Origin: Trichoplax sp. H2
Lineage: Eukaryota
Direction: 5' to 3'
NCBI GenBank assembly: GCA_003344405.1
Contig: NOWV01000012.1
Coordinates: forward strand, 806,001 to 870,000
DNA: 64,000 nt
Part shown: positions 7,030 through 53,180 of the stretch, in pieces
Layout: every line of letters starts with the position of its first letter
Numbering within the stretch: position 1 is the first letter of the stretch
Position numbers and translations under genes: made by a program
The notes under the pieces: model-generated
Databases searched by the model: none
What the model saw: only the letters and a program-made list of their open reading frames with translations
What the model was told of the DNA's origin: nothing

Positions 7030-7279
7030 ACCTACAGTACGAAAACGAACACTGTAGACGTGATCGAACAACGGTCCACTCTGGTACTGTACTGTACGAG
7101 TACAGTATACTCTATCACAACGAGTACACTCGCGAGCTTGCTTACAGTCTGTTGTACTGTAGCCTCAGAGTACTGAGTACTCCTTGTGTACTGTACACTA
7201 CAGTGTACAGTACTTAATTTTACAGTACAGTAAAACCACGTACTGTACTGTACTGTACTAAGAAATAAAACAGCAGTAC
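7030..7279. repeat. TACAG/CTGTA (GTAC-rich) low-complexity tract upstream of NAA15
   Basis: Runs such as gtactgtactgtactgtac and tacagtgtacagtac. Confidence 0.8.
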
Positions 7280-7542
7280 AAATTGCTAGAAACATCAAGA
7301 GCCCAAGGTTGAAATGATCGACAGCATTTGACTCCAATATACAGTATTACACATGCATTGATTGATGTGGAATTGGAGTCCAATTTTAATGTACTGTAAA
7401 TGCCTTCAAAATTGATAGAAACATCAAGAGCCCAAGGTTGAAATGTTCGACAGTATTTGACTCCAATATACAGTATTACACATGCACTGATTGATGTGGA
7501 ATTGGAGTCCAATTGAATGTACTGTAAATGCCTTCAAAATTG
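7280..7542. repeat. Tandem direct duplication, 2 x ~129 bp
   Basis: aaattg(c/a)tagaaacatcaagagcccaaggttgaaatg...gtactgtaaatgccttc starts at 7280 and 7409 with few differences. Confidence 0.95.
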
Positions 7543-7751
7543 GAAAAGATCTAATAATTAATGAAAGGCTATACAGCTGAATAGCTTTCAACCAGTATAG
7601 AGAGCTCGCCACGCCCTGAAATCATGGCCTGTTGTACTGTACTGTGAACTGTTCTATTACTGTATTTGCTGAGTATACGTGTAAGTCCATTGGCACAGAT
7701 CAGAAAGAAACCTGAAGTTTCTTTCAACTCTTTTTGCTGCAAAAGTGTAGA

Positions 7752-7797
7752 ACCATGGACTAGTCAATCTTACCGGTAAGATTACGTCGTCCATGGT
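7752..7797. repeat. Interrupted palindrome/hairpin
   Basis: accatggac-tagtc-aatcttaccggtaagatt-acgtc-gtccatggt: a perfect 18-bp central palindrome with perfect 9-bp outer arms. Confidence 0.85.
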
Positions 7798-8059
7798 AGA
7801 ACTGTAGAGGATACTGTACTATACTGTACTGTAGGATAAAAAGGGTCTGACTCACTTCCTTGCATAAAGATACAAGTATAATCACTTCGATGCGTCCTTG
7901 TAAAAAGCTTGAGTACTGTTGGAAACTTCCATTAATTAACCTTAATTATTTCATTAATTAAAACGTCCCATGGAGACCGTCATAGACAGATGGACTACTA
8001 GACGATGTAAGATTGAGTAGTCTACAGTATGTGTTATGGACTCCATACCATGCTATGCA

Positions 8060-8290
8060 AAACTGTAAGTACGGTACCGGTACAGTACAGTACTGTAAAA
8101 AGAGGTCTGAAGTCTGTAGCTTACCAGTCGTGAGTTGGGTACTGTACAGTACAGTACGTACAGACCTGACTGTACGTACTGTACAGTACACGTGGACAGT
8201 GCAGCAGTGGATCCTGAGTGTCGTGTACTGTACAGTGTACAGTGTACAGTCTACAGTGTATTGTACTGTACAATTGGACTACTGGACTTG
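8060..8290. repeat. TACAG/CTGTA tract upstream of RNF121, containing a 13-bp-arm hairpin
   Basis: acagtacgtacag-acctga-ctgtacgtactgt near 8151-8182, plus multiple tacagtg and tactg units. Confidence 0.8.
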
Positions 8291-9719
8291 ACTGATGGAT
8301 TGGTGTTGACGAGTTCCTTAAGGTTAAAGCATTGGTTTCCTTCCCTACGATACAACTACTGAATGGACTGACAAAAAAGAGGGTGAGAAAACTGCCTAGT
8401 TTATCATCGATTCAACGTATAGACTACTCAATTTGGTAGGTATAGAATACTGTACAATCGTTTTCAATCATAGCCATCTCTTTCGATTGACTGTATTCTG
8501 CAATTCATGACCAAGAAATAGAGTCAATGGTCTGAACTTGCGGTCTCTCGTTGGCTTCAGTGCTGTTCGGTAGAATAATAATAAGTAGACAGTAGTGAAT
8601 GAATATTGTTCTAATTTGGCCTATCCAAATGAAATTACACTACGGTCTGCTAGTGACAGTCATTATGCTTTCAGTCTATTAATGACTGGATTAGACATAC
8701 TATACTGTTACGTCGAGCATGTTTCCATCGATTTCTGATGTGTATACCGCGCGTCTATACGGATAGGATCGTACACCTCTTGAATGCATCAATTAATTAA
8801 TCCATATACAGCACACGTACATACGTATACCCTGCGCTAGGTCAATAATAATCAATACCAGACCCAATATGAACTTGTGTCATATCCAAAAGCAACTTAA
8901 TACCTCATATGTAGACTGTTTAGAGAAAATCAATCATTCAGTTCATATGAATACTTTTGAAACCCTACTGTTGGTGAATACATACATACCATATCAAGTA
9001 GTCATCCAAGGTGTTGTTGTAAAAGCATGGCAAATACATAATAGTCTGCAAAGAGTAATTTATTGATCGATTTTGGATTACCGTAATAACAATAGATTGT
9101 TGTTCACGTACGGTTAATAATATTAAGAATGAACGCTAATTGCTGGACACGAATAATACTCGGATATAATTATAATTATTATTCGTCTTTATTATCAATG
9201 AGTAAAGTAGATCTACCGTCATAATTGCTTGTCAGGTAATACAGTGTGATTAATGCTTGACTTATTTGGATGACAATCATCATCTTGTTTTAAAAGTACA
9301 GCCCAACACATCAGCTCTGACTGCGTTCGGAGATTAACATCTGACAGTGATTGAGACAGTTGACTTTAAAGGTATATTGTATGGTAAATAGGATTTCAAA
9401 GTATTAACAGATTTAGAGTCAATTTTTGCCTGCTATATAATAATCAATCAACTACTGTCTATCATAGCTAGTTCAAAAATCAGATCATTTAAATTGATCG
9501 AATAAACAGCCGTGGACCATTTGTTATCATAGCTTATCGTACAATATATGTTTTGATCATATTTAAATATATAACACTTGCTGCTCTTCTGTATCATGTT
9601 TATAACCTGTAAGCTTTTGACTGTGCTACTAATTTATCTTCATATATTTTATCTCTAGGTAATTAAAACTACTCATAGCCGACGTATTGCTAGATTAGTT
9701 ACAATCAATTGAATTTGTC

Positions 9720-11774
<2,055 letters not shown>

Positions 11775-13891: not shown

Positions 13892-16800
13892 TTAAACTAC
13901 ACTGTTACGTTCAGCTAATACTTTCGATGATGCAGTCGAAGAATTGGTATGACTGACTTTTTTAGCTGTTTTAGGTGTTAAAATGCCTAATTTTTTTCTA
14001 AGTACACTACCGGCTCTATGACTACTGCGCGTAACCTTTTTGGCCGAATTAGTGTAACCATTTTGACTAGTTGATTTAGTCTTATCCTGTTGATTGCGAT
14101 TTGGCTTTTTAAATTCGATAGCTTGATTTTCATTGGTAGTCGATGATAGCACTGTAGGAGCATTATTACCATTAGATGATAGTAAAGCATCTAAATTTCT
14201 TGATCGATGGCGCAATCGAACGCGTTTACTTTCATCATGCGATAATTCGTTGGTGGCATTTCTTTTTTGTTTACCATAATTCGGATGGTTGTTATTATTA
14301 CTAACACTAGTTTTAGCTGCTAATGTACTACCGTGTTTAATTTGCTCTTCAGTTATCAAAGTATCATTTGAGATTTGCAATTCAATTGGATAAGATGATT
14401 GTAAATGCGATGGATTTTGTTGATTTCGACGATTTAATTCACCTAAACGAGTCCAATCAAAATGTTCTGGTTCATCATCTACCGTCATAAGACTACCAAC
14501 AGTATGTAGGCAACCTTTACTTGTACCACGAATATATGTACTAGCTAAACGCCGTGATGCTTGTACTTCATTATCATCGATACTGCTTTGTTCTTGTTGA
14601 TGTAGATCTTGTTTCTGTTGCTTAGTATTGTCGTTCTCTTTCAATTTAGCAGCAATATCATTAACAATATACGTAATACTTTTACGATTAGAAAGCTTTG
14701 ATTTAATTGATGAATTTAGTGATCTGTTATGCGAGACTGAGTCATCCAAGCTATCATCAGAGTAATACTCGTTTAAATCACGTTGAATTCTATTGGAGCA
14801 CAATACTGATGTATCAAGTATCGATTGGTTTGTTGTGTTTACTGCGATTGTTGTGGCTGCTGTTCTTAGAGATTTTATGCTTCCCATTTTAACATGATCA
14901 TGATCATTATCATCTTTTAATTTACTATGGTCTTGCTGTTGCGATAACGACGACGATGGATTATCCTGTATATATTTCAATTGAGTATCTAATGAACGTA
15001 CTTGGCCGCGCAGACGATTGTTAATTTTTTGCTCTTCTCTCAATTTAATTTCAGCAACATGTTTACCTTGGCTTAACAAATCATTATCGCGAACAAGGTA
15101 ACGGATTTTATTATATAACTTGGCCAATTCATCTTCTTTAATATTAAATTGACTTTTACGGCCATCATTATTAACGGGTATAACTTTTTCTGGATTATCT
15201 TTTAATTCCTCATATTTTGTTCTCATTTCTTTATATTGTGATTGTATATCCTGCAACGATTGCGATAATAAGATAGCATTATTGGTTGTAGTATCAGCTT
15301 GTTCTTTTTGTATATGTTGCAACAATTTATCTTGATACTCAGTTGCTTTCTTTTCTAATTGAGCTAAATTATTATCTTTTAAAATTAATTGACTTTTCAG
15401 TTGATTAATATCTTCATCATTCTGAGTTAATTTCTTTTCTAATTCTTGCACGCGATCATTAGTAAGACATTTGTTATGCTGTTCGTCTTGTAGTTTTTTG
15501 CTAAGTTCTTGAATGTCACTTGATAATTTGCATTTTTCTTCTGCATTGCTCCGTAAACTATTTTGTAATTGATTACATTTCAAGCGATAATCATTGGCAC
15601 ATTGATGCGCTTGTTTAATTTCGTTATCGTAACGTTGATGCAAGGCAACTTCTTCACTTAATTGTCTAGCCAATTCTTGTTGGTCCTTTAACCATTGCTT
15701 TTCCGATAACTTTAATTGATCAACTTGTTTTTGTAATGATTTCTTGAGGTCATCAGTTTCTTTCTGATACCTCACTTCAATTTCAGTCAATTTTGATTGC
15801 AATTGATCGATTACTTTCTTGTTTTTAGCTATTATCTGCTGATTCTGATTTAGTTCTGTATCTTTCTCTTCTTCTGCTTTGGTTAATTGTTCTTTAAGTA
15901 TTCTCTGATTTTGTTCATTATCTTTCTTATACTGATCATGTAAGGCAGTAATTTCTACCTTTAATGACGCGATAATATCATCTTTTTGTTGAATGCGTTC
16001 GTTAAGATCTTTCTTCAATTCCATTTTAAGATTTTGAACTTCATTATTAGCAAGCATAACTTTCTCTTCAGTATTTTGTAACAATGCTTGATGATTTGTA
16101 TCCTTCTCGGTTAAATTATCATTCATTGATTTAATTAAATGTTGTTGTTGACTTAATTGCTTTTCATATTTTTTAACGGCAACATCAAGTTCCTTTTCCA
16201 GTTGGTTAACCTTAACTTGTAATTCTTGCTTTTTCTCCTCATTGTATTGATATTTTCCTTTCAATTGACTGTGCATTAAGTCAAGTTCCCTTATTTGCTG
16301 CTGATAGGAAAAGGCTAGTCGTTGGTTATCTTCTTCTTTGGTGTTAAATTCAAGTTGTAATTGTTTTAATTGAAGCGTGTACTTTTCTTCCATATCAACT
16401 TTGGCTTTCTTAATTTGATCAAGTTGCTGTTCTAATTCTTTTATGTTCATTTTCATTTGTGATGTAGATTTGTCCAGTTTTTCCTGAAGATTTTGTAAAT
16501 CATTGGATAATTCTTGTTCTTTAGCATGATAATCTTCAATTTTTAAATTAAATGCTTCTTTCATTTGATGACGTTGTTCGATCTCATTTTGCAATTGATG
16601 ATTAATATTTTCAATATTAATTGAATGCTGCTTATGTATTTCTTCTATCAGTATTTGCTTAGCTGCAATATTGTGTTTAGCATCATCAAGTTGAGAGTTA
16701 GCTTCTTTAACTTTTACTTCTAAGGTTTCTTTGCACGTAAGCATATCCCGTAGTTGACTTTCAAGCTGAACATTTCGAAGATCGACATCATCTTTAATCG

Positions 16801-19800
16801 CTTTCATTTCATCAAGTTGCGTTTGAAGTTGATTAGTTTCGCATTCCAAGTGATTTAATCGTTCATGAGCTTCTAATGTCAAAGCCATACCACCAGTTGT
16901 TTCAGTTGCCTTAAAAGCTAAAAGAATATTATTTCAAAGAAAATTGTTAGACCGTTATATAAATGTTATGTTACTTCACTATACTTTGACTACACCTATA
17001 AATTCTCAAATTTTAATTACCAATTTCTTCTAACTGTTTTTGTTGTTCTTCAAATTGAACTGTGCGCTCTTTTAGTAATTCGGTAGTTTGTTCTTGTGCT
17101 AGCAGTAACTATCAAGCAAGAGAAAACAAGGAACGAAGCCAAACATTTGAGGTTCTCATTGATTCTGTACACGGCAGTTTTAATACACTTGAGAACAAAC
17201 TATGGTGTACATTGACTTTCTGTATACTCATCAAAGCTAATACGTAAATTTTATAGTGTCCTGGCTAATCATGAATCTTGAAGATTACAATGATTAAATA
17301 TAGAATACGTTTTGATAGTATCATTCGATACAAATCTACAGAATGTATAATATCGTACCTCATTTCTTTCTTGAGTTAACTTAGAAACAGTAACATCTGC
17401 TAATGTCAATTTTCCTCGCAATTCATCAATTGCGGATTCCGCTTGATCTAACTGATTTTGGATATTTTGGTTTTCAATGTCGAAACGGTAGGTAGCTTTC
17501 AACTAATAAATATACAATATGAAATCAAGATAAAACATAATTAGCTGTATAATTTCAACTTTAAGGTCAATATAATATAAATTAATTAGTAACGTAATCA
17601 ATTTCACAATTCAAAGTTCCAAAGTGAATTTTAACCGTTAGGCAATTTACTTTATCTTCCAGATTGTCTTTATCAGCAAGTAAATCTGCAACTTTGTTTT
17701 CCAATTCGTTGTATCCGTTTCGAATACCCTCCATTTCGTGTAAGCGTTGCCGAAGTCTAAACAGAACGAAATCGTTTTAAATAGCTACTTTTTTACTCCG
17801 TAGCGTATTGACCAGTTGTTACGATTGTGATGACATAAACAGAAATTATGCGAATGCATTTAATTAATACAAAAAATGATAAAAATTAATGTACATGTAA
17901 TAAGAAACAGTTATCGCAGGCAACTATGTATAAAAGTAGTTATAAAGTATGAACTATGTACATGCATGTATATTATATTGGTATTCAATGATACTGAATA
18001 TAATTTTAAAGCCAATGATATAATTCCTTACTTATCAATTTCGCAGTCTTTTGAATCAACATGATCTTGTAACATCGCGATGCCATCTAATTGTTGCTTA
18101 ACCAGATTAAGCTCACTGACTTGTTTGGTTAATTCTTTAATTTTTAGCTCTTTTTATATAAAGAGATTTAACTTATTAGCATTAAATATATTCTAAAATT
18201 GTTTTTAGCTAAGTATTCAGACTTAATTTTTTTAAGATTTATTGTATTGCATAAAAGAACTCACCTTTTTCCTGAATGATTTTGTTTTTTTCATTTAACT
18301 CCGATTCAAACTCAACTTCATTACCTTTATGAGATTTAAGTTGCCTTTTTAATGTGTCGATTCTTCTTTCCATTTGCAGTTCTTTCATCTATTTTAGAAT
18401 TAAATAAAAGATAATTAAAAAATTTTCGTAGGTTAGGTTTATCAATCACTTTTATAGCTTTCAGAGCGTAAATTTTTTATGTAGAAAGGTAGGTAAAAAT
18501 ACCTGCTTTTGTCTGTTGGCAAGATGTGGAGAGCAAAAGTTCTTTGCTATCATAGGTGAATATGCCATATTTATAAAACTGGGTTCTCTGGGAGATGAAG
18601 ATAAACAATATTCATCTTCTAAAATGCTCATTCTATCTACGTTCCCTAGTTTGATGTCAAAAGAAGTTGAAATATTTTTGAGAAGTTAGTATTTTATCTC
18701 CATTTCTAAAACCTAAAGTCATAATTTTCAAGTTAGGAAATAACTAACCATTTAACTTTATATTTTCTAATAGTGAACTAGTTAATTCGTTAGTCTCAAC
18801 TAGATCTGATACATGTTCTATTGCACTCTTGATAATTAATTGCACGTTGTTGTCCAGTTTGGTAATACAATTAATAAATATGGCCACATTATTACAGTGT
18901 ACAGCACAGCTTAATAATAGTGTAACCACCTATATAAGAAATATGTAAATGATATAAAATGTGTTATGATCGGTATTTTAATAATAACATTACCAACGTC
19001 AAGTAAAGCCAAATTTTAGGTTTATATCCAATTTACTAATTTTAAGTAATTTAACTAGTTCTTTGAATGATAGTGGTATTTATTGTTTATAAGATCTACT
19101 GTAATGATAATTTAACAATATTTCAATTTCATACTTGGTTAATTTGTTCTTATTAAGATTAAATGAGTAGTTGTGCATACCGCCGATATTCGAAGTACTT
19201 AATGCACTAACAATTAATTACTTTGAAATAAGTTGATATTTATGACACATACTTAATATTAGGTAAGACATGTTGGTGACTCAAATTTTACCTTCATAAT
19301 TTCGTCAGTATCGCAATTGACAACGATTTTCTTGCTACTGACAATATTTTTTAAAGGCTGTTGATAGAACTCTGTTTAAGATGATATAATCGACGAAATA
19401 TTAACTTTTTAGTAGAGCTTTTAACATCTACGATTTGAGATAGAAAACTACTACAATTATAGACCAGTTAATCATAATTAATGACTTTATTACCGTAATC
19501 TATATTTAATGGTTAGATACAAGTACAGCTCAGTTGCAATAGAATATGAAGTTCTATTTCAATGTATTAAATAAGGCATTTCATGTTTTTTGACTATTTC
19601 TACTTTTGTAATAATATCTATTGAGATATATAAATTTATCCTCATTTTTTACCTTCCATATAAGCAAATATTGCGCGATAGCGAGATTGCGGAGAATTAT
19701 CATTTTCGGTAGCATTAACTTTACATGTATCTTCACCGCTATGTAAGAAAATAATTTTACAAAATAAAGGCCATGCGTAACAAAAAATATTATGTACAGT

Positions 19801-22800
19801 ATTTGAACTAAAATAAACAGCATTGATTTTATAGTACAAATTACCTAAATCGTCTAATTACTTACTCTCAGAAAAGGAGCAATCGAAATACATTAACAAT
19901 TGTACCGCTTGTATTGTATTATAGCTAACATTAACAGTACTTAAGACTTTGGCGGTGCTCATATACTCGATCAGGAGAGTTATTGGTACGATTTGAGTGA
20001 GTTATATTAATAATTGTATTATTAAAAAACAATATATAAAAGCAATGTACTACAGCGCTGGAAAGTAACGGTTCATAGTCAAAGATCTAATTTAGTTAAC
20101 CTTCAGTAGACACTATATGACAATATGACGTAGTAAGTCATTCTCGAGTCCAGCTGATATCAAGATTGATATTAGCCGATCAGATATAAGATGTTAACCT
20201 TATTGGCTTTATATCGAATGATCACTCGAGTCCAAGTATTATTTATTTACATAATTTCGGGTAATGATATTTACTACCTTGTAAATGTACATTTTACGGA
20301 TAGCTGTAGTGGAAATAACATGTAAAATATTTACTAAGCGATTAAGCCAATCAGTTTTTAATGATAATTGGTTTAAAATTTGGTTCTACCAAAGGTGCTA
20401 ATTAATGCACTGTTATAATAATTTAAATAATCATGTGTTCTACTATTATTAAAGAGCCAATACCAACTGAAATTTTATTACTACATTATGACGTTATCCA
20501 GTTGCAGATGTATCATGATGTTGTATTCTTTAGTAAGGATAGAGAACTATGTTAGGGGATAGATGTACTATATTTATATATATACATATATTACATATAC
20601 AAGTATACAGATAGTTAAATTACAATAGTATGACCAGATGTTTTCTCACTAAAAGAGATTTTTCGCAACTATTCTATATTACCTAGTGTTGTAGACGTCT
20701 ATAAATCAATCTATAACTTATAATAGATTTCCTGTTCTATTAATTACATTGACACAGTAGCAGTTGTGCTTACTAAAAGTTAATTTTGAATACTTACAAT
20801 AATTTTAAAATATTGAATAAGATCTGTCCATCTTGTAATTCTTGATAGTGCTTAACTGTAGATGATATTACACCTGTACTGTTAATCTATAGCCATTTAA
20901 GAAACAGAAAATTAGATATGTAGACAAGGCAATAATGTAGTATAATGTTATTAAATATACAGTGCAACATGATCAAGATTTGTTACGGTATAAAGCAATT
21001 TTATGTTAATTTTAACACAAATTACACAAATTAGAGTCATTGTCAGGAAATAGATCTCATGGCATGTTAAAGTAATTAATCAATTAAGCTATCTGTGATA
21101 CAGGCATGTAAATGTTGTCCTCTATATGTGATATCTTGACTTTAAAATGATTTCCCAATTCTATTTTGCAAACATTTAGGAGGATATTAATAAAAAGTCT
21201 CCAGGCATTGTCGTAGATTCAAATGTCTGTTGTCTACGATAACAATAGAAATAATGAATAGCAGCAGACTGTAAACAATAGCTGGATGAAATTTATTTAT
21301 ATAACATCGACACGCATTGATCAATTATTTGATAATAACATATTGATCGGCTATTTCGTCTTGTTTATCATTGTTATAGTAAGAACTAGATAATCAGTCA
21401 TAATCTATTGTAGATATGATCGGTTTATTTACATGACAAATAAGTAACCATTTAGATATTAATTATTGACAATTCGATTACTACTTAATAGATTTGCTAA
21501 GGCATGTCATAAATGTAGATAAATAGGAGAAAAAAGTAGAAGGCCATGGTGAATGCTGACGCCGATATTTTACATTTTTCATCCTGAAATAGTTGGACCA
21601 ATTCGTAATTTACACAACATGCAATATCATAGAACGATGCCGATACTACCTTCTAATGTAATTTTACGTTTGAATACTTTGTAGTATTTTTTTAATTTAA
21701 TCTACTTAGCCAAGATTGAAGGCCAAGAAAAAAATAGAAACAATAATAGAACTCGAAATTTCACATTTTTTGAAATAAATGCTTGGCTCATTATTAAAAT
21801 GTTAGACTTAGGTATAAGCACTCTTAATAGATTATTGTGAATAAAGGTACTTGAATTTCTATTTTAGCCAAGCTGTTATTGTCCAACTCAGCTTAATCGT
21901 GATTATGAATTTGCGTTTCCGTAGTAGATCACTGCAATCAGTCACATTCATTAAGCTGCAGTAGTTTATGGTATTTCTACACTTTAAAATAGGTTGATCA
22001 ATTTGTTAATGAATTTATCCCTTGATTTAGACGTGCCTGATAGAGTACAGTAGACGCATATAACAGTACCAAGCAGAAAAAATTTAAAAATATCAAACTC
22101 GACACTTTGTCGTTATACCTTGATGTGATTAATAACTACTAGGCGGCTAACTGTAAATCGTATCCTAAAAATATCAGATGACAGTCGTATACGAATCTTA
22201 AGATATTCCACGATAATGAATTTATCGCCTTCGTTGTCATCAATATTTGATGTAGATGAACGCTTGATATTAATATTTAACGTAAAAAATATGCTTTACA
22301 TTTAAATGGACAATCGTTGTTTATAGTCTATTACAGGTACTACATTCCATAGATCAATAGAACTATTTAGAATTTCTTCTCTCGTAGTTCTATGAACTAG
22401 TGATTGATAGACATCGCTCCAATTAATTGATTCTAGCATCATTTAGAGATATCGATTTATTCATAAAAATGTACAGTACAATTGCAAACGGAATACTAAT
22501 CCATTTATAACGTATTCAGACAAAAGGGCGAAAAGATTTCTTTTCTAAAGCGGTAAACACGCGAGATGCTACTTATCATCTACTGCATTTAGCATCCTTA
22601 TTAAATATAATGGAAGAGAGGATTAAAATTTTTTAGTCTTTTATGATGATGATATACTGTAGTTCTTTAGACTCTTTCAGATTTAGTTGTGAACCTAAAT
22701 CTTAGTCAATCGATTGTCAACTGAAGTACAGTAATAAGCTTGCAATAGTTGGTTGAAAGAAATTTTCAGTATCTACTTATCTCTATCTGTCCACATTGTT

Positions 22801-23979
22801 TTAAATTAATATTTTCAAATATTGAACTATATTAGCGTAACAGATTGTTAATGAAACGCGGAAATAGTTGTAATTTCCCCTAAACTATTATTACAATCTA
22901 GAATAATAGAAGAATACGCCATTTCGAATGCAAACCAATGTTATCTTTTAAATTGAAATATGTATATTATAGACATATATCTATATTGCCTACTAAAGCC
23001 GTTTAATTGTTGAAGAAATTGTTAATCCTTGAAGGTAATTCTCTTTATTTGAAATGGGCAACTTGCTATTATTGTTCTAGTTATATTGATGCCACAGGGT
23101 CTACATTGCATATAAATACCGTATGGTTATCCTCTTCGTGGACGTTTAAACTCGTGCCACAAAAATACGCATATCAGTTTATTCTCGTTTATCATAAATT
23201 GGAATGGAACTAGTATAAGATGCTACTGTTTATGGAATGAAAACATTGTTCAATTGAAATATACGGTAATTGCATAATACGTCCAAGTTGGATCGATTAA
23301 CTTGACAGGTTAAAGGCGAAAGAAACAAAATTGTAGCGTTTGAATGAGACTCTTTTATATGAGAGAGCTCTTGTTAAATCTCTATTTTACCTTGATGGCT
23401 ATAAATGATGAATTGCAAAAAATTTTCTTGAATAAGGATCTTATTGATTATTGCTATGATAGATGTCGTAAGTAAAAAAAGGCTAAAAAATCAGTCGAAA
23501 TGGTTGTTATGCCCGTGTATTATCCTATGGGTTAATGCACAATACGTTAACTATAGTGTGCTATTTAGGAAATGTGATCGATCGCGATAAATAGGGGATT
23601 ATTATATCGATTTCCATATCTTCAGGAAATAATAACCTAGCAAGTTACACCATTTCAAAAAATAAGTCACTAGAGCCAAAGGACATAATATGATTCAGAC
23701 TTTTTATCAATGGAAATGGCTTTCTTGATATTTTTGTTGTATTTTTACTAAGTTTGAAGTACTTTTATAGTTCTATCTATCCTACGAGTACTATATCATT
23801 TTTTTTAGATTGCAATTTTAACAACGCTCATTTACGTTGGTTACGGTTAAGTAATCGCACAGTAATCGTCATAACAAGCAGAAAAGGTACTTGCTGTTAG
23901 CCTATTTGTAGTTGATACTGATCCATTCTGAATAACTTACCCATTCTAAAAGCGCAATGTGAAGCTGCTTGTTTGTCAT
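13892..23979 (-). CDS. NUMA1: Nuclear mitotic apparatus protein (NuMA)-like: N-terminal Hook/CH-like domain, long coiled coil, C-terminal NLM motif; ~3 kb terminal exon (13892-16917)
   Basis: The start exon MTNKQLHIALLEW|gtaagt (ATG 23979) splices to INSTGVISSTVKHYQELQDGQILFNILKL, which is Hook-domain-like. A heptad-rich coiled coil follows. The tail motif DDEPEHFDWTRLGELNRRNQQNPSHLQSSYPIE resembles the NuMA/LIN-5/Mud motif. Confidence 0.85.
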
Positions 23980-24997: not shown

Positions 24998-25165
24998 GTT
25001 ATTGTTGTGCTTGTGTTGGATGTTGTAGGAAAATGGATGAAGATCGATATTTTATCCATCATTATAATCAGTCAACCCTTGAATGTGAGTTATTGTTGTG
25101 CTTGTGATGGATGAAGATCGATGATTTATCCATCATTATAATCAGTCAATCCTTGAATGTGAGTC
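24998..25165. repeat. Tandem duplication (~90 bp unit, second copy with an internal deletion)
   Basis: agttattgttgtgcttgtg...atggatgaagatcgat...tttatccatcattataatcagtcaa(c/t)ccttgaatgtgagt occurs twice. Confidence 0.9.
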
Positions 25166-26157: not shown

Positions 26158-26662
26158 AACTGTACAGTACAGTACTGTATGTATACTGTACACTGTACAC
26201 TGTAAAAGACGACCTTTGGGCTGGAATCCGGCCCATAGCAGGGCTAGTTTGCAGTACGTAGACTGTAGTATGAACGACTTTCATGACTGTTCAGTTCTTT
26301 CATGGCCAAAAATGTGGAGGCTGCCTACTGTATTTTACTGTGCACAACCAGCGATAGTTGAAATGACCAGCAAAATCGTCAGCCAGTTCAGCTTCCACAT
26401 TTTGCAGTCGTTTGGTGTTCACAGTTTGAAGTTTGAAGCCATGTGTGACGTGTGTGTACACTGTACGTACAGTACTAACATTTCCAAAATACTGTACTGT
26501 ACTGTACTGTACTGTACGACTAATGGTGCCAGTACTGTACTGTACAGTACTGTACAGCCTCCACCGCAATCTACAGTACCATCTACCTTGAGTACTGTAC
26601 AGTACTGTATAAGGTACTGTACTCCCTAGCATGGATTACTAAACTACACCGCGTAGTCCATG
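26158..26662. repeat. TACAG/CTGTA tracts upstream of the inferred NuMA first (non-coding) exon
   Basis: actgtactgtactgtactgtactgtac and cagtactgtactgtacagtactgtacag; the tract ends with the hairpin gcatggattac...gtagtccatgc. Confidence 0.8.
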
Positions 26663-29540: not shown

Positions 29541-29550
29541 ATCACAAACA

Positions 29551-29609: not shown

Positions 29610-29772
29610 TTTACACACTGTACACTACAGTACTATACTGTACTACTGTACTGTCCAGTACACAATGTACACTTAAATTGTACAGTATAGTACACTGAGT
29701 ACAGTACAGTACTGTAGAGCGATTTCTTTACTGTACAGTACTGTACTTTACAGTGTACAGTACTGTACAGTC
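29610..29772. repeat. TACAG/CTGTA tract immediately upstream of UQCRB
   Basis: Near-continuous actgtac/acagtac units. Confidence 0.85.
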
Positions 29773-31116: not shown

Positions 31117-31423
31117 CAAGACGCACTGGCGCTTGGCTGTGATAGTGCACGCGCAATGAAGAGTTTTGGATGCACCGCACAGCAGTTGAATCATTTAGGG
31201 ACTTGAACTAATGGACATCACGGGCGCTTGAATGGATCGATGGACGTTCTGACGATGAATGTTTTGGAGGACTACCACAACATTCAACATTATATAATCA
31301 ATCAACGACGCTGTACTGGAGGACATGGGCTAAACCTGACGTTGACAGTGTGGAGGAATTCGACCGGACGTGGAATATACTGTACTGTACACTGTACAGT
31401 ACAGTATATTCTATTGTGTCTTA

Positions 31424-31679
31424 GAGCACCCCTGCGCTGTGGTTGGCCTAGAAAGATCATGTGATTTTCTACGTACAGTATTTCACACGTACACTCGTAC
31501 AGTACTGTCTCGAGTCCCGGAAGTTCAACAACTTCATCCTACCGGTTAGCCAGTTAGAACTCTCGAGCACCCCTGCGCTGTGGTTGGCCTAGAAAGATCA
31601 TGTGATTCTCTACGTATTCATACGTACAGTACAGTATAGCACTGTCTGCAGTCCCGGAAGTTCATCCTACCGGTTAGCC
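31424..31679. repeat. Diverged direct duplication (~115-128 bp) carrying ETS-like and E-box-like motifs
   Basis: gagcacccctgcgctgtggttggcctagaaagatcatgtgatt...gtcccggaagttca...tcctaccggttagcc at 31424 and 31565. Confidence 0.92.
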
Positions 31680-32338
31680 TCGAATGCGCCCCAAAATCAC
31701 ATGGCCATCAACAGGCATACTGTGTAGTATCCAGGCAGATACTGTTACTGTACACTTGTATAGCCACCATTTCATGCTAAGGAGTTGTGGAGTAGAAGGA
31801 TGTGTCACATGACCCACTGTGACCTTGCACCCGCCCACTAAGAAGATTTGTACAGTATGGGAAAATATTTAAATTTGACCGCTTTCCCATACAAATCCCA
31901 ACAATATTTACACCCCTGGTTCAAAGCTTTGGTCTGTACTCTACAGTATACTGTACAGTGTACAGTTGGACATTCTTGACAATGCCCGACACCCCGGTGT
32001 ACTGTACAGTACAATGCCCGGCAATCCGGGCAATGCACCGTGACGTAACAGTATACAGTATATAGTAAATATTGGCCAAGGTAGGTTATGAAAGTAATTG
32101 CCAACCAACCGACCTTAGAGTGACGCACAAGATGGACGTCATCCTGTAGCACGATTCATTCATGGTTCACATGGTTTTAAAGGTAAGAAATTGCTCCAAT
32201 TTTCAAACCATTTCTTCTTCAGGATAGTGCTCAGCATTACAAGGGTTAAACCTTACAATCTTGTCCATTAGTGGCTTTGAAATGCTTGGGTCATGTTACC
32301 CTAGAAATGATAAATACTCTTTGACATGCCACTAAAAG

Positions 32339-32466: not shown

Positions 32467-32600
32467 TACTAGCGCAAAAGAGGGCCAATGATTTCCATTC
32501 TAGTCGTCTATATAGAATTATACAGATGCATATACTTTTTATTAGCATAAGTAACGGCAATCCCCTTCTATCCTCGGTCCTCCTCCCTTAACATAAATTC

Positions 32601-37284: not shown

Positions 37285-40200
37285 ATGGAATGCTCAGTAT
37301 GCAATAAAAAATACAAATTGGCCGAAATATATCCTAATAAGATATCACAAGTAGCAATGTGCAAGGTACGTCTTTAATTTGATATGATGTTTTGTATTGA
37401 AATCAGTCATGAGATGCATACTATGACAGTGATAAACTTGATTTTTCCTTGTAAGGCATGCCATGATTTCTCTTATAACTCTGAATGTACGCTGGATGAA
37501 GATGGCCATTATGCACAATGTGCTTGGTGTGGAGCTAGAAACGAAATTTTACTATGTAGTAGTTGTAAAAATAGTTTCTGCACTACATGCATTAGACAAA
37601 ATTTTGGTAGAAAAGTACTGGAAGTGATTCAAAATCTCAAATTTTGGAGATGCTTTGCTTGCGATGATCCGTTCATAAAAAGTTCACAAGAAAATTATGA
37701 GGGAATTTGCTTCGGTAGTAATTCGATAAAGGAAAGCAGCGTCGTGAAAGGCAGGTGTTATGGTAAACCGAGCGACAAGGACTTAATGGAATCCAAATCA
37801 ATCGATACAGCTAGTTATGCTCTTGGATCTGACGATGCCAGTGACGTTTCTACTAATGTTAGTGTAGGGGAACATAACTTGGATAGTAACGTTAATGAGG
37901 CGGTTTCGAATGTTGACTCTTTGGCAGTGGATAGAAACCAAGAGTTAAATCGATATTTAGCAGAAGATATGATAGCGGCTGATCAAACATATGACAGACA
38001 TAGCTGTGTTGACTTTGAAATTCGTTTATCTTCTGATGATTGGAAGAATGCACTAGACATGCATCGAACTGAGAATATAAATACAATTAGCAGCCGACGC
38101 CTGAAATTAGGAACGATGCCAACATTTCCTTGTTTTCATATAGTGGCTGTTGGTTTAGAAGATTTAAATATCAAAAAATTAAAACTGCTTTACCCGACGT
38201 ATAAGATTACAGTTGATCATGATCCTTTCTTATTGGAAGATAGAACCGAAGATAAGTCTTTAGATAGCGATTATGATAATCCTGATATACAGTCAATTCA
38301 TGATAGTCAAAGCGAAAGTCAGGAGTCCTCATTTTTAAGCAAGATAGAAAGAAAATTACTAGGGAAACAACATCCAAAGAGTCGAAAACACCGTCTTAAA
38401 TCGGACATTTCTGACATAAGTGATGGAAAATGTAATCATTCTAATGTAAAACGTATGAAATTAGAGTCTGGATCGTTGAATTCTGATGAAGATAATTATC
38501 CATCATCATCTCACGATATATCAGATAACGAATCAGATGAACCTATTTCGGATAATTCATCATTTTGGTCGAGTTGTAATGAATTCGATGATGAACATAT
38601 CGATAGTGAATGTAATCTCAGCGATAGTAATGAAGCAAGTAACAACTTTAGCGATAAATCAACAGAATACTCGTCATCAATTTCGGATTCTGATAGCTCG
38701 GTGTTGAATATGGAAGACCTGATTAGTGATAGAAAAGCAAGAGTGCGTCGATCAGTCGAGAAAGACCTTACAGATGCTGATAGTATCACGAGCATTTCAA
38801 CGGATACCGAAAGTAATGCTACCAAGGCTGTGCTAAAAAGCGCTTTGCAATATAGTCCTACTAAATCAGAATCTTCTAGGCATAAAGCAACTGTTAAAGA
38901 CTGTGAGATAACTCACCATGATAAAAGGCAGGTCTCTGTATCGTCGGAACGTCGTCGCGATAACCCATCAAGCCACTGTTCTTTCCGAAATGCAGATTCA
39001 GTGTGTGATAATTCGGTATCATCGGAACGTCGTCGCGATGACCCATCAAGCCACTGTTCTTTCCGAAATGCAGATTCAGTGTGTGATAATTCGGTAAAGA
39101 TATCTTCGACATTGACTTCTGTCAATGAGCCTGATAATCAGAGTGAACATGCAATGGAAATTATTGCTTCTAGTAAAGATAAAGAAAATACTCACCACAC
39201 TAATAACGTCGAAGATCGTAAATCACCTCCAAATGCTACGCATGAAGATGATTCTCCTTCTACAGTATGTTTAAAAAAGAACTCTGCTGGTCGTAAGAAA
39301 ATACGCCGGGTTCTTAACTATTTTGAGCTAGATCCGGAAACCCGAGCTGCGGCGAAGGAAGAAAAAAAAAGATTAGATCGCATTAAAGATCAGAAGCGTT
39401 CGAAAACTACTTCTTCTGCAACTAATAGTCAAGTAGATGACTTTATTTTAGAGAAACATGATAATAAAAAGATTGTTCACGTCCAATCATTCATTAGTAA
39501 GCATCTAAAAGCTCATCAGAAGGAAGGTATAAAATTTATGTGGACAAGCTGTATCGAGTCAGTTGATCGAATTGCTGAACCTGGATCTGGTTGTATAATT
39601 GCACATTCGATGGGCTTGGGTAAAACGTTACAGGTAGCTTCTAGCATTCGTATTGTTCCGGTTCATACTTTTAAACTTATTCTCAACTAATCACTGGTCT
39701 AAATAGGTTATCGCTTTCATCGATGCAGTATTGAACTATGGTAATGAAAGCATACAGAGCGTACTTGTAGTATGCCCTAAAAATGTTTTATTAAATTGGG
39801 CACTGGAGTTTAAAAAGTGGCTCAAGGGGGAAAATAGTTATAGTGTAAGTTATTACTAGAATTGTTAAAATATAAGAGAAATTCTTAATTAATCTGAAAA
39901 TATATGACCCTATATCTTGCAGGTACACACTTTTTCAGCTACCTTAAGCAGTACTAAGGACCGTTTGAGGCCTCTACGGCTCTGGCATGCTACGAAGGGT
40001 TTAATGATTATTAGTTATAATATGTATACGAAGTTGTTATCACCTGATAAATCTAATTTTGATCGCAGTTGTAATGATTTTCTTGAACAAGTTCTATTGG
40101 AACCTGGTGAGTAATGCTTACGCTTTACCTAATAACATTTATTTAACGTAACTTGGGTAAATTTTTCAATTATTGCAGGTCCGGACATTGTTATATGTGA

Positions 40201-45663: not shown

Positions 45664-46660
45664 CGTGTACCGTACAGTGTACAGTGTACAGTACCATGGA
45701 CTACTCAATTATACTGTACGATGGCCCAGACGGCTCAGACAGTCAGACAGCCAAGACGGCAAAAATAGTTGTACAGTATACTTTGAACAATTGTATAATG
45801 TACAGTCCAGTCCACTTTTGCCAGTTCTACTGTACAATCTGATTATTTTCGATGTCTCCCCTTCGTTCAAAAATCAAAGTTGTATTCCGTTGAAATTCCA
45901 GTGTAGTATTTATATATACCCGTAGAAGGATATCTCCGAAGATAGATTATCATGATAACATGAACGTACAGTATAGTACTGTACTGTACAGTTTTTTCTT
46001 ACATTACACAGTACAGTACAGTACAGTACAGTATAACAGTACATGATGTACCGATGATTTAAAGTGTACTAATAGTACACAGTACAGTACAGTAGTCCTT
46101 GTCTGTACGCCCGTGCGTCTGTACTATTCTTTTAAGAACTACAGTACTGTACAGTGTACAGTGTACAGTACTGCCCTGTCCAGTACTGTAGCTACGAAAA
46201 GAGAAGTGCAGACATACAGACGTACAGACAAGGACTACTGTAGTACTGTATGTACTGTACTGTTAGTACAGTACACTTTAAGTCATCGGTATATCATATG
46301 ACTGTTTCGTCACTCTTCTATCTTTCGGCAGTTGCCGATTTCGTCAGCGACTTCTATTTTCTCTCTATCAACTGTTGACTATATTATACTATTATATTAT
46401 TCAGAGTAAAATAAAAATACTGAAGGTGAACTGTAGAAAGCAAGTGCTTAGTACTTTAATAGAGACGATTTCGTCATGCTTCCGACGGTACAGTACTGAG
46501 TACTGGAATCTACAGTACAGTACCTACTATACGTACAGTACAGTACCCGATCCAGTACAGTACAGTATTATACTGCATGAAAGAATAAAATGGACTCAGA
46601 GTCATGACAGTACGGTACTGTAGTCCGGTATACTGTACACTGTACAGTACTGTACTGTAT
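45664..46660. repeat. TACAG/CTGTA tracts filling the LRRC51-LAMTOR1 divergent intergenic region
   Basis: acagtacagtacagtacagtacagt and tactgtacactgtacagtactgtactgta, among others. Confidence 0.85.
46043..46297. repeat. Long imperfect inverted repeat (~110-120 bp arms)
   Basis: atgatgtaccgatgatttaaagtgtact...cagtagtccttgtctgtacg pairs with cgtacagacaaggactactg...agtacactttaagtcatcggtatatcat. Confidence 0.9.
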
Positions 46661-48990: not shown

Positions 48991-49770
48991 CTATATTAAG
49001 AACGCAAAGTTATTAAATAAAGATTATCATAACTACCGTATCTATCGATATCGATGTGAAATGAAACTGGAATTAATATTATACCATTCCTATCGGTGAC
49101 ATTTTCGTTGCGTATTTCGGTGGCGTAAATTAACTGTTGGGTAAAATTGCAAAGTCAACGTTATAGCTAAATGGATTCCATCCTGTGATTAACCATAAAT
49201 TGACTGTATTTAAAAAATATTACTCTTGTGAATGTAAAGGAGGCGTTCAATATAGGATATTCATTTATCAATTTTCCTGTCTGAAGAATGGCCGACAACA
49301 CGTTGTAAAATTTAATTATCTTAAATGCATGCTATGTACAGATTAACAATTTCGTTTGTAACGAATCTACATAATATGTACATTTTCTTTTTATTATTAA
49401 CATCATTAGAGATATAATATTATCAAGACTGATCTAGATAGTGATTATCATCGTAGTAAAATTTTCATGATTGATTGTCCTTAACCTGTTGCTTGATATG
49501 CTCACTACAAATAGTATACTGTGATAATAGTGTGATTGCTACAATATCTAGCTTTCATATACGAAAATTAGCTGTAAACGTAGGCATTTAACAAGTTTTA
49601 GATCAATTATTCATCAATTCTATATATTTATTTTGTTTCAATAACGAGATTGTAAACCTACTATTAAATATAGCTAACGAGAAAATATATATTCAAGATA
49701 GGAGCTCTTTGAAAGCTATTTTCTTGCGGTTCATTTTGCTGTATTGAAATTTAAAAGAAATAAAATTATC

Positions 49771-50158
49771 ATTGAACTTTCGTTTATTTTGCCTTACGTA
49801 TATTTTAGTCACTACAGGTATTTTGAACTCATAGAGTAAAATAACGTCAACCTACTGTATAGGAGGGCATTTACTGTCTTGTTATTAATGTATTGTAAAT
49901 CTCTTATTGAACTTTTGTTTATTTTACCTTACGTATATTTTAGTCACTACAGGTATTTTGAATACATAGAGTAAAATAACGTCAACCTACTGTATAGGAG
50001 GGCATTTACTGTCTTGTTATTAATGTATTGTAAATCTCTTATTGAACTTTCGTTCATTTTACCTTACGTATATTTTAGTTAATACAGGTATTTTGAACTC
50101 GTAGAGTAAAATAACGTCAACCTACTGTATAAGAGGGCATTTACTGTCTTGTAAATCT
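49771..50158. repeat. Tandem repeat, 135-bp unit, 3 copies
   Basis: attgaacttt...ccttacgtatattttagt...gagggcatttactgtcttgt starts at 49771, 49906 and 50041. Confidence 0.96.
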
Positions 50159-51455
50159 CACGTATCATGCAGTCGTGTTTTCAAGTCAATAAATAGTTTT
50201 ATGTATCATATACGTATTCTGGTAGGCTAGCTTTTAATCCTATGAAATAGGATGACTGTATTCTCGATCACGGTTGTAATTCTTGAATAGAATTCTTTCA
50301 AGAAGTCGTATCTGATTGAACTACAGACTTCCTTGGAATTAGTGATATTTGTCTATGGATGTGTTTCAAGTGCAGCTAAAGACTACCATGTCCGATAATA
50401 AAAATTAACCGAGCATCATTTATATAGAGTTAAATACATATGTGTGCTCGTATGCGACAAGATAAACGTAACTATTCAAGTGTGCTGCACTTTTGTTTGT
50501 TTCTAGTGTGAATGTTAGTTACTGGTATACTCGTATATTCACCGATTATAATCATATACGTATGTTGCGTTACTATGAATTAACTGTCACAATATAACTC
50601 CAAGAATTCATGTACACTTTTACAGTATGCGTATTATCCAATACAGTATAAGAACATTTAGGTAGAACTTTTTAGAATACTTTATATAATTTGTACTCGC
50701 TGAATTACAATTAAACTAGCCTATGAACTGTAAATATCTGAGCTTCGATTGTATTAATACTGTATGCTAAGATTTTCGTATTTTTGTTGTTTTATAGGCA
50801 GCAATATACTCGTATCCTTCTTGGTAACGAGGACTTTGGATTTTTTCTTTTTATCTTGTATAGAAAATTTTAGTGGAAAGTTTATTTTCCAAGACGTCAT
50901 TATAGTGTAGAAATAAATAAATGTTAACATTTTTCAGTGGTGATACCAAGTAAAATTCTGTATAAGGATTCGATGGCATACGCATATATGGGAATACTGT
51001 AAGAGTAATCTTGAACAAGTATACAACACTAGACCGTAGAGTTGCAAGGACCACAGTATTACTGTTGCGTATCTAATAAGGTATTTTACAGTTATTCGCA
51101 GTTGAGGTCGAAGATATAGAAAGACGAGATTATTACATGGCAAATTTACCGATAGCATTCCATGTCTACAATATACGTACAGTAACGGTACAATGGCAAT
51201 TATACAAACTGTCTATGTTAGTATTGTACATTCGAATAGTTGTATAGTCAGTGTACGTAACCAAATTTGAACAAGTGTAAAAATGCTGGCAGTCTGGCCA
51301 ATTTGGAATTTCGTATGTCTTGATATTAGCGTTCACTAAAGCCAACAGTCAGATTGAATAAAACGATGGTAAAGGAATCCATTTGTTTGGACAACGATTG
51401 ACTCGATATCTTCCAGATCCACTTGACCAAAACGATCCACAGAAACAACTACTAG

Positions 51456-52151
51456 TTAGCGCGCATCAAAAACGATCACTATAAAATTGAGGCAAGATTA
51501 ATAGGAAAATGATTGCATTGCTCTGGACAGCGTTTGGGAATATACTATGAATAATGATAAAAGCACTAGAGTATAGCATGATTTTAGCTCAACTTACTTC
51601 TTTTGGTTCTTTTCTTATACAATATACGACAACCGCACTCACGACAACGAATTGGATCACGAGGTTTTATATCATTTTCCATTCGACAATCTAGATCATT
51701 TCAGATATGTAGCCATACGTGGTAGAAGAAGAAAAGAAGTTGATGATTACGCAGGTGAAGTATCGTAGGCAAAATCATGCACTTTATAGAAGCTGACAAT
51801 CATTTTATACACACAAAACAGCAGTAAAGCCTACAAAAGTAGCCTAGATCAATGTGATCTCTTTGGTCTAACAATACGAATAACGTATCAGAGTAGCGGT
51901 TGGCATAACGATATTTTAGCCTTAACGTATTTCACTTGGCATGGCAAGATTGCATTACTCGTATAATCCATTCCGATTGCAATCAACAGTCAATGCCAAG
52001 ATTTTAACAAACTCTTTGCTATCATAGTACTTGATATTGCTCTATCCGTCAGCATACCTCCACAAATATACTTGATAGAAATTTTGTTGGCATTAGCTGT
52101 AGAAGGCTGCGTGGATGTGGACGTACTTGCTGTTTGTTCGGCAGCTTCCAT
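51456..52151 (-). CDS. POLR2K: RNA polymerases I, II, III shared subunit RPABC4 (RPB12); 3 coding exons
   Basis: [10 protein letters not shown]...[49 protein letters not shown]. It is absent from the ORF track because the exons are short. Confidence 0.96.
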
Positions 52152-52234
52152 GTTGCATGCCGTCTATCTTTTTCAGCCTCAGACTTTAGTACAAGGATTA
52201 TAGTAAGAAGAGATACAGTTGACTGCACATTGTC

Positions 52235-53180
52235 GCCACTGCAGTGCACAGTATAGTACTGTGTGTACAATGTACAGTGTACAGTACTACATAGCGTACT
52301 GTACACTCTGCACTGTACGTACTGTACTAGTGTACACTGTACTGGATGTGGACCAGAGTACCTGTACAGTACTGTACAGTGTATGTTACAGTAAGGAAAA
52401 CGACTTCAGAAACGCTGTCATTACTGTGTCGAGTACAGTATATCCCATTTCCTTCCTTTCTTGTTTTGCTGGAAAAAATGAGCAGGGACAGGAGCTGCTG
52501 ACGGACAAAACGTCGTCTTTTATTAACTTGAGCGTAAAGTACAATACTACGGTGGCCCAGAAGGCTCAAACTACCTAAAAATAGCGTCCAAAATAATAAT
52601 AAAATAATGAAAAGGAGAGTGGTACAGTTTAGTACAGTAGCCATCTCTTGTGTCAGGCTGTGTGACCTGTACTGCTTACGTCACCAGTACAGTACAGTAC
52701 ACAGTGTACAGTCTTATTACCGTAAAATGCAATTTAGTACAGTAGGAGGCGATCCGATCCTTTGCCTAATACAGTTGAGTATAATGGATTAGTATGGCAT
52801 TGATGTATCATCTATGATACATTGGCACTTAACAGGTTCAAATTTTTGCATCACATCGTACAAAATGGATCGCAAATGCATGGTTTAAATATATCTGAAT
52901 ATCTGTATAGGAATGTGGATAGCCATTGGTCTTTTTTAAGCGTTTTACTTGTAGTTTTGACTATTCAAAGAAAAGAATAGTGTACAGTACAATAAGTATA
53001 CAGTACTGTACACTGTACTGTACAGTACTGTACAGTACAGTACAGTACAGTGAGTGTACAGTGTACAGTGTACAGTATGACCTCGTCACTGTACTGTACT
53101 GTGGATGAAGCGCTGCAAACTGAAAGCGTCCAAGACAAAAGGCTGATTTGACCTACTGTACTGTACTGTACGGTACACTG
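52235..53180. repeat. TACAG/CTGTA tracts in the POLR2K-CANX divergent intergenic region
   Basis: Dense blocks at ~52235-52440, 52620-52745 and 52980-53180. Confidence 0.85.

What the first reader, a model, noticed from the sequence alone, without database searches (positions are those of the whole stretch)
7030..53180. GTAC-centred TACAG/CTGTA pentamer tracts mark essentially every promoter in the window
Seen: dense self-complementary (TACAG)n/(CTGTA)n/TACAGTG tracts at ~7.0-7.3, 8.1-8.3, 26.2-26.6, 29.6-29.8, 31.4-32.1, 45.7-46.7 and 52.2-53.2 kb. Each lies just 5' of a gene start (NAA15, RNF121, NuMA, UQCRB, ATRX side, LRRC51, LAMTOR1, POLR2K, CANX). Tail-to-tail intergenic regions and introns carry only scattered single copies. 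Inference: this looks like a lineage-specific promoter signature, a CpG-island analogue built from a simple repeat. It could act as a multivalent binding array, a nucleosome-positioning or cruciform-forming sequence, or a DNA-modification target at GTAC.
Basis: partly seen in the sequence, partly recalled or inferred. Interest (0 to 1): 0.8.

Follow-up and report, generated by a model that had tools for sequence, protein, structure and literature searches.

The report
Known Trichoplax ACAGT promoter repeat tracts
These five-base repeat clusters in front of housekeeping genes are the already published ACAGT repeat of the tiny sea animal Trichoplax, and they appear to grow by small insertions that look like scars of a jumping gene, while a role in controlling the genes is still unproven.

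Summary
The tracts are real (GTACAGTAC 86 times against 0.56 expected). The window is from Trichoplax. The repeat and its position upstream of translation/housekeeping genes were published in 2010 (PMC2871265), and this scan has found it many times on other DNA of this genome. It does not mark every promoter: tracts lie upstream of 24 of 29 proteasome/LSM genes and 0 of 20 GPCR genes. It is not a plain slippage repeat: the unit is GTAC plus A or T, and orientation switches at 86 of 208 junctions. New here: a hAT-like MITE is inserted at the 31.5 kb tract in a second copy of the region. Its copies gain CAGTA or CTGTA at lone TA sites, both orientations at five sites, polarised by the family majority. 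That matches the Sleeping Beauty footprint, an idea earlier scan notes had raised. No element able to write the footprints was found. Function as a binding array or CpG-island analogue is untested, and there is no CpG depletion to contrast with.

The parts
7033..7833 (.). GTAC-W tract (dense part 7033-7259) upstream of NAA15, in the NAA15/RNF121 head-to-head interval
   Evidence: NAA15 ATG 6730 on -; NAA15 by PDB match E 9e-15
8080..8455 (.). GTAC-W tract (dense part 8080-8271) upstream of the RNF121/RNF175-like gene
   Evidence: gene by Atlas look-alikes, a lead only; ATG near 9720 with a 5'-UTR intron inferred from splice signals
26162..26623 (.). two GTAC-W clusters between the UQCRB 3' end and the NuMA-like gene (ATG 23979, -)
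   Evidence: P0002 maps to 13895-23979, PDB NuMA match E 2e-4
29626..29768 (.). GTAC-W tract 86 bp upstream of the UQCRB ATG (29540, -)
31311..32013 (.). diffuse, polymorphic tract on the ATRX-like side; differs from a second copy (G000:C972, L104) by 5- and 7-bp modules
   Evidence: ATRX-like 5' end not located
31485..31505 (.). site that lacks the 458-bp hAT-like MITE present in the C972 copy of this region
45686..46275 (.). GTAC-W tract on the LRRC51 side of the LRRC51/LAMTOR1 head-to-head interval
   Evidence: LRR by Pfam
46088..46242 (.). 155-bp inverted repeat with non-repeat arms (23 of 24 identical), TA-flanked and starting CAG; no second copy found
46488..46659 (.). GTAC-W tract 187 bp upstream of the LAMTOR1-like ATG (46846, +)
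   Evidence: gene name rests on recalled N-terminus and a weak PDB match, E 0.3
52279..52744 (.). GTAC-W tract 128 bp upstream of the POLR2K ATG (52151, -); a 5-bp unit gain is seen behind 52432 in run X4
   Evidence: POLR2K by PDB E 5e-13
52982..53171 (.). GTAC-W tract 317 bp upstream of the calnexin ATG (53488, +), possibly inside the 5' UTR

Best explanation
The tracts are the published (ACAGT)n repeat of Trichoplax. They are not mainly slippage arrays. They grow by repeated insertion of a 5-bp module (CAG or CTG plus a duplicated TA) at TA sites, preferably in GTAC or GTA/TAC context (shown). That module is the canonical excision footprint of Tc1/mariner elements whose ends read CAG, so the likeliest writer is such a transposase system (inferred). 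Each event at a GTAC leaves two GTAC targets, so hit places attract more hits (inferred). Open chromatin at broadly active promoters is the preferred landing ground, which explains tracts at housekeeping but not GPCR genes and a second DNA transposon family sitting in the same places (association shown, cause inferred). On this reading the tracts are first a record of promoter accessibility; any regulatory role is secondary and unproven.
For: Grammar: 483 of 500 5-bp GTAC steps have A/T as spacer, and 86 of 208 neighbouring steps switch orientation; 769 of 1,557 TA-to-TA spacers up to 6 nt are CAG/CTG. Polarised gains: among up to 32 MITE loci, lone TA sites that are plain in 14-22 copies carry +CAGTA or +CTGTA in 1-6 copies; both orientations at reference sites 64, 144, 188, 419 and 213; one site has grown a 40-bp mixed run. 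No gain at two TTAA sites (0 of 20, 0 of 26). In the window, one of four copies of a duplicated module has an extra CAGTA at a lone TA (about 31,475). TAC[A/T]GTA is the top TA-N3-TA word outside tracts too: 4.2x near housekeeping genes, 2.0x at GPCR loci. Sleeping Beauty footprints are TACAGTA/TACTGTA plus TACTA/TAGTA and others (bioRxiv 10.1101/659086); 1-nt spacers in tracts are C/G 115 to A/T 41, against 514 to 1,116 in controls. 26 of 32 MITE loci have tract-rich flanks.
Against: No writer found: two DDE_3 and three DDE_1 (pogo-like) loci, none with TIRs within 1.5 kb of the match; the one Tc1-like gene with a DD34E triad has an in-frame stop or unresolved intron. Wang 2010 also found no intact elements. 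The 7-bp module (CAGTG/CACTG, 91 spacers) is not among the eight SB footprints. CA/TG against AG/CT spacers is not significantly skewed (25 to 14, p 0.13). Nearly all gains have 3 nt of microhomology (GTA or TAC), which templated repair would also use. MITE copies share ancestry and may include both haplotypes of one site, so copies are not independent events. The number of events needed genome-wide is very large. The footprint idea came from earlier scan notes.
Confidence: 0.5

Rival explanations
1. Selected multivalent binding array: a placozoan factor binds TAC[A/T]GTA or GTAC repeats, opens or insulates housekeeping promoters and helps form promoter hubs. Not exclusive of a footprint origin.
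For: 24 of 29 against 0 of 20, peaking 0.5-2.5 kb upstream of the first Pfam match, with no strand bias (732 to 655). Wang 2010: 54% of ACAGT repeats within 1 kb upstream of genes. A Hi-C neural network recovered a repeating ACAGT motif in T. adhaerens (PMC12817080). Promoter hubs at housekeeping genes with an enriched motif (PMC12221973).
Against: 5 of 29 housekeeping genes lack a tract within 3 kb. Two copies of one tract differ by many modules and a 458-bp insert. The modules accumulate inside a non-autonomous transposon, where selection for promoter function is not expected. No binding protein or deletion test in the papers read.
Confidence: 0.25
2. Templated insertion during break repair or template switching: a 3' end ending in GTA or TAC anneals to a nearby tract, copies a few bases and returns, so tracts seed themselves without a transposon.
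For: Almost all polarised gains are at sites with G before or C after the TA, none at TTAA. It explains 7-bp and multi-unit gains. No writer element was found.
Against: Gains are mostly exact 5-bp TA-to-TA units rather than random tract pieces. One gain has only TA in common with the module (L116, site 144). The heptamer is enriched far from tracts, even at GPCR loci (2.0x). It does not explain how the first tracts arose.
Confidence: 0.2
3. The tracts are fragments or TIRs of one transposon family (the 'Mutator' of Kim et al. 2025).
For: A multicopy MITE carries internal tracts and is polymorphic at 31.5 kb. Kim et al. report Mutator TIRs with the loop-anchor motif at GP1 promoters.
Against: Window tracts share no homology with other loci beyond the repeat itself. 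The MITE's ends are built of GGACGT-type repeats, and PMC12817080 assigns the ACGG motif, not ACAGT, to the transposon. The MITE gains its tracts unit by unit.
Confidence: 0.08
4. Ordinary slippage microsatellite (ACAGT)n, enriched at promoters by chance or by relaxed constraint.
For: Short pure runs exist, e.g. 46008-46033, 5.2 copies at 100%; some gains duplicate a neighbour unit.
Against: 41% of junctions switch orientation and no chain exceeds 8 steps. Units appear at lone TA sites with no neighbour to copy, in both orientations.
Confidence: 0.06
5. GTAC is a DNA-modification or nuclease target, a CpG-island-like mark. A staggered cut at GTAC, fill-in and one untemplated A would also give GTAC-A/T-GTAC.
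For: GTAC o/e about 20 in tracts; spacer is A/T in 483 of 500 steps; gains are commonest at full GTAC sites (5 of 6 sites).
Against: Gains at GTAT, GTATA and TTTAC sites add bases the site cannot template (sites 144, 201, 213, 303). GTAC is not depleted in background DNA (o/e 0.92-1.36). No data on modification were available.
Confidence: 0.04

Closest known systems
(ACAGT)n microsatellite of Trichoplax adhaerens (Wang, Zhang, Meyer, Bao 2010, Biol Direct 5:18, PMC2871265; read parts 1-3 of 4)
   Same: Same pentamer, same genus, same position (54% within 1 kb and 85% within 5 kb upstream of genes), same gene class (translation, protein modification), same proposal of a binding-site role.
   Different: The paper treats it as a perfect tandem microsatellite; it does not describe mixed orientation, the 7-bp module, polymorphism or an origin, and has no negative gene class.
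Placozoan promoter hubs, GP1 promoter motif and 'Mutator' TIRs (Kim et al. 2025, PMC12221973; read section 8, repeat-annotation method, passages; motif logo not seen)
   Same: A motif at about a third of promoters, housekeeping-biased, absent from cell-type genes, tied to DNA transposons; domestication versus targeted insertion left open.
   Different: Whether their motif is ACAGT could not be checked. PMC12817080 (passages) lists ACGG as the transposon motif and ACAGT separately. The MITE found here has an 8-bp duplication (hAT-like), though 12 of 15 copies could also be read as 9 bp.
Sleeping Beauty / Tc1-mariner excision footprints (bioRxiv 10.1101/659086; passages)
   Same: TA becomes TACAGTA or TACTGTA in either orientation; minor forms TACTA/TAGTA also enriched.
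   Different: Here stacked by the dozen at promoters; an extra 7-bp module; no element with CAG ends and no intact transposase with TIRs found.
Vertebrate CpG islands; Drosophila GAGA repeats (recalled, not looked up)
   Same: Short-motif-dense patches marking broadly active promoters without strand bias.
   Different: No CpG depletion in background (o/e 0.94-0.95), no known binding protein, and an insertional rather than protective origin.

Membership tests
Trichoplax (ACAGT)n repeat (Wang 2010) | genome is Trichoplax | tested here: met
   window exon 100% identical to a protein the source names Trichoplax sp. H2
Trichoplax (ACAGT)n repeat (Wang 2010) | ACAGT pentamer in tandem, far above chance | tested here: met
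Trichoplax (ACAGT)n repeat (Wang 2010) | lies upstream of housekeeping-type genes | tested here: met
   8 window genes; 24 of 29 against 0 of 20
slippage microsatellite | homogeneous head-to-tail runs; gains copy the adjacent unit | tested here: not met
   86 of 208 orientation switches; gains at lone TA in both orientations
Tc1/mariner excision footprints | TA -> TA-CAG-TA or TA-CTG-TA, both orientations, polarised gain | tested here: met
   footprint set
Tc1/mariner excision footprints | minor footprint spectrum (TACTA/TAGTA, TACATA/TATGTA, TACGTA) | tested here: inconclusive
   1-nt spacers fit; 2-nt skew p 0.13; 7-bp module outside the set
Tc1/mariner excision footprints | an element with CAG-ended TIRs, TA duplication and a transposase in the genome | tested here: not met
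   5 DDE loci without TIRs in 1.5-kb flanks; one single-copy 155-bp candidate; search not exhaustive, assembly may be incomplete
Kim 2025 loop-anchor / GP1 motif | motif identity | not testable with these tools
   logo is in a figure; 4 of 6 supplements searchable, no hit
Kim 2025 loop-anchor / GP1 motif | ATAC, H3K4me3 and Micro-C loop anchor at the tract | not testable with these tools
   no chromatin data on hand
CpG-island analogue | motif depleted in background by modification and protected at promoters | tested here: not met
   CpG o/e 0.94-0.95 and GTAC o/e 0.92-1.36 in background; modification itself not testable
hAT-type MITE (the C972 insertion) | 8-bp target duplication | tested here: met
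   15 of 21 two-ended copies perfect; a fixed 9-bp reading fails in 3 or 5 of the 15
hAT-type MITE (the C972 insertion) | short TIRs, subterminal repeats, multicopy, non-coding | tested here: met
   13 of 15 terminal bases complementary; 67 matches listed from 40 of 540 candidates scored. hAT end and target consensus are recalled.
hAT-type MITE (the C972 insertion) | autonomous hAT partner with the same ends | tested here: inconclusive
   5 hAT dimerisation-domain loci; two checked for TIRs in 1.5-kb flanks, none seen

The most novel reading that the evidence does not exclude
Placozoan housekeeping promoters are built from stacked excision scars of a CAG-ended Tc1/mariner system that targets open chromatin and re-targets its own scars; the scar arrays were then co-opted as the binding code for promoter insulation and promoter-promoter hubs, perhaps read by a domesticated transposase-derived protein. 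Separately, the 'Mutator' family tied to loop anchors may be an 8-bp-TSD hAT-like MITE that rides into these tracts.
Probability: 0.2. Interest if true: 0.85.

Novelty: already known. Interest (0 to 1): 0.35.

Why it matters
The observation itself adds little: it has been in print since 2010. What would matter is the origin. If the commonest repeat of an early-branching animal is a self-amplifying pile of transposon footprints, it is a genome-wide record of which promoters are open in the cell lineages that pass DNA on, and it bears on the open question of whether transposon marks at placozoan promoter hubs are cause or by-product. The MITE family gives a neutral, polarised substrate for measuring the process. 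I did not find the footprint origin in print (searches, open-access library only), though earlier notes of this scan proposed it.

Tried and rejected
ATRX-like 5' end: a search for the full-length protein found nothing and a scan of 29.8-37.4 kb found no convincing upstream exon. 155-bp inverted repeat at 46088-46242 as the writer's MITE: 8 exact 14-mer matches and 18 matches with 2 mismatches; in the 6 and 10 loci outside the window's own site that I read, none had a partner arm or homologous body. Larger inserts inside MITE copies (L117, L120) are bounded by gaps or are other tract-rich DNA, not a TIR element. Tc1-like, pogo-like and hAT-like genes: no TIRs near them; mariner (Transposase_1) and MULE profiles were not searched. 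Fill-in plus A-tail at cut GTAC: fails at non-GTAC sites. Hairpin z-scores were not taken as evidence of cruciforms. Several rows were anchor mis-pairings inside repeats; I relied on the longer anchors and dropped tract-internal sites. The TA-free control (6 of 89 positions flagged) appears to be mis-pairing between the element's own repeats. A second motif (GAC[A/G]GAC, 0.42 per kb upstream of housekeeping genes against 0.02-0.03) is rare in this window (3 sites). RNA runs were contigs only, so no TSS could be mapped. Papers with nothing relevant in the passages seen: PMC6067683, PMC6336885. No source for placozoan methylation status was found.
Full report
Observation. GTACAGTAC occurs 86 times against a shuffle mean of 0.56. 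Using 8-mers of (ACAGT)n on both strands, dense clusters fall at 7.0-7.8, 8.1-8.5, 26.2 and 26.5-26.6, 29.6-29.8, 31.3-32.0, 45.7-46.3, 46.5-46.7, 52.3-52.7 and 53.0-53.2 kb. Smaller clusters of 5-8 hits lie in a few introns or gene-distal places.

Genes. NAA15, NuMA-like, UQCRB, ATRX-like, an LRR gene, calnexin and MGAT4 and POLR2K are supported by database matches. RNF121/175 rests on an Atlas lead. Tract-to-ATG distances are 86-618 bp for six genes, about 1.3 kb for RNF121-like and 2.5 kb for NuMA-like. Three tract pairs sit in head-to-head intervals. The ATRX-like start was not found. RNA data were contigs only. In run X9 a spliced calnexin contig carries differences at 52925, 53087, 53218 and 53225, so it spans the 52982-53171 tract. 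That hints that some tracts are in 5' UTRs; it is 1 of 4 runs and cannot fix a start.

Organism and prior art. A window exon is 100% identical to a protein the source labels Trichoplax sp. H2. Earlier scan notes pointed to Wang et al. 2010, which I read (parts 1-3 of 4). It reports ACAGT as the dominant microsatellite of T. adhaerens, 54% within 1 kb and 85% within 5 kb upstream of genes, enriched at translation genes, and proposes a binding-site role. Kim et al. 2025 describe promoter hubs at housekeeping genes with an enriched motif tied to 'Mutator' TIRs. The motif letters are in a figure I could not see; 4 of 6 supplements were searchable and gave no hit, and the two unreadable ones may bear on this. 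PMC12817080 (passages) found repeating ACGG and ACAGT motifs in T. adhaerens Hi-C models and assigns ACGG to the transposon. So the finding is known, and its identity with Kim's motif is open.

Wider test. I took 3 kb on each side of the 5'-most Pfam match for all 14 proteasome genes and all 15 LSM matches found and for the top 20 of 147 GPCR matches. With at least 10 hits in 300 bp as the cut-off, 13 of 14, 11 of 15 and 0 of 20 have an upstream tract; 3 of 29 housekeeping loci have one downstream. The anchor is not a TSS, one LSM locus had only 1.7 kb upstream, and a tract may belong to a neighbour. The 10 kb beyond the window's right end, which holds the MGAT4 5' part, has no tract, nor do the 20 kb before the window, which I did not annotate. 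The tracts mark a class of promoters, not all.

Grammar. In 83 tracts (13 from the window) the step between GTAC cores is 5 bp in 500 cases (A/T spacer in 483) and 7 bp in 93. Orientation switches at 86 of 208 junctions, and the longest chain is 8 steps. Background CpG o/e is 0.94-0.95 and GTAC 0.92-1.36, so there is no depleted background as with CpG islands. Outside tracts TAC[A/T]GTA is still the top TA-N3-TA word: 4.2x near housekeeping genes, 3.9x in the window's flanks, 2.0x at GPCR loci.

A natural experiment. A second copy of 31.0-32.3 kb (G000:C972, probably the other haplotype; inferred) differs by 5- and 7-bp modules and by a 458-bp insertion. The insertion is a multicopy element. 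15 of 21 two-ended copies have a perfect 8-bp target duplication, and its ends are imperfect TIRs with GGACGT-type subterminal repeats: a hAT-like MITE (family traits recalled). 26 of 32 loci have tract-rich flanks. Its unique segments are nearly identical between copies, which polarises changes. Lone TA sites that are plain in most copies carry +CAGTA or +CTGTA in a few, in both orientations at five sites. Two TTAA sites show no gain. One site has grown a mixed 40-bp run. Slippage cannot make a unit where there is none to copy. Copies are related and may include allelic pairs, so counts of copies overstate events.

Mechanism. TA to TACAGTA or TACTGTA is the canonical Sleeping Beauty footprint (10.1101/659086, passages). 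The fit is incomplete. One-base spacers favour C/G as predicted, two-base spacers are not significantly skewed, and the 7-bp module is outside the SB set. No writer was found among two DDE_3 and three DDE_1 loci. The one TA-flanked, CAG-ended inverted repeat in the window (46088-46242) has no second copy that I could find. Templated repair using GTA/TAC microhomology remains a real rival. Shown: unit-wise de novo gain, target bias, gene-class association. Inferred: transposase as writer, positive feedback, open chromatin as cause. Untested: any effect on transcription.

Verdict. Observation confirmed; interpretation partly supported; feature already known. Interest 0.35, carried by the unpublished origin question (searches found no paper proposing it in the held library) rather than by the sighting.

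Noticed in passing
L104:668-1125 (G000:C972); empty site near window 31485-31505: 458-bp hAT-like MITE family, 8-bp TSD in 15 of 21 copies, often readable as 9 bp, with GGACGT/ACGG subterminal repeats; could be what automated annotation calls placozoan 'Mutator' (untested).
   Followed up: yes
window 46088-46242: 155-bp near-perfect inverted repeat with non-repeat arms inside the LRRC51/LAMTOR1 tract; single copy as far as searched.
   Followed up: yes
window 3-53 kb: RNF121-like, NuMA-like, LRRC51-like and LAMTOR1-like genes are neighbours, as on human 11q13 (recalled), suggesting ancient microsynteny.
   Followed up: no
L094:1390-2520 (G000:C323, - strand): Tc1-like transposase gene with an intron and a DD34E triad, one in-frame stop or unresolved splice, no TIRs nearby.
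   Followed up: partly
L142, L143, L144; L095; L137-L141: Long open frames of pogo/CENP-B-like, IS630/Tc1-like and hAT-like genes without TIRs seen; probable domesticated transposases and candidate readers of the tracts.
   Followed up: partly
L036-L064 upstream regions; window 26950, 37993, 52500: Second motif GAC[A/G]GAC, 0.42 per kb upstream of housekeeping genes against 0.02-0.03 in controls; a GGACTAC-type word also recurs near tracts.
   Followed up: partly
window 7280-7542, 25033-25170, 30839-31116, 32597-33186, 38938-39096, 49771-50152: Recent tandem duplications of 74-145 bp units; the 78-bp one lies in frame inside the large ATRX-like exon.
   Followed up: no
L092 about 1690-1705 (C972 copy of window about 32000): Two telomere-type TTAGGG units inside a small palindromic insertion present only in the C972 copy.
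   Followed up: no
window 59.9-64 kb and L065: Two tandem MGAT4-like genes; no tract within the 10 kb holding their 5' parts.
   Followed up: partly
window 37378-39690: The ATRX-like gene has no close full-length relative in the protein search and its 5' exons were not found; it may be a divergent paralogue.
   Followed up: partly
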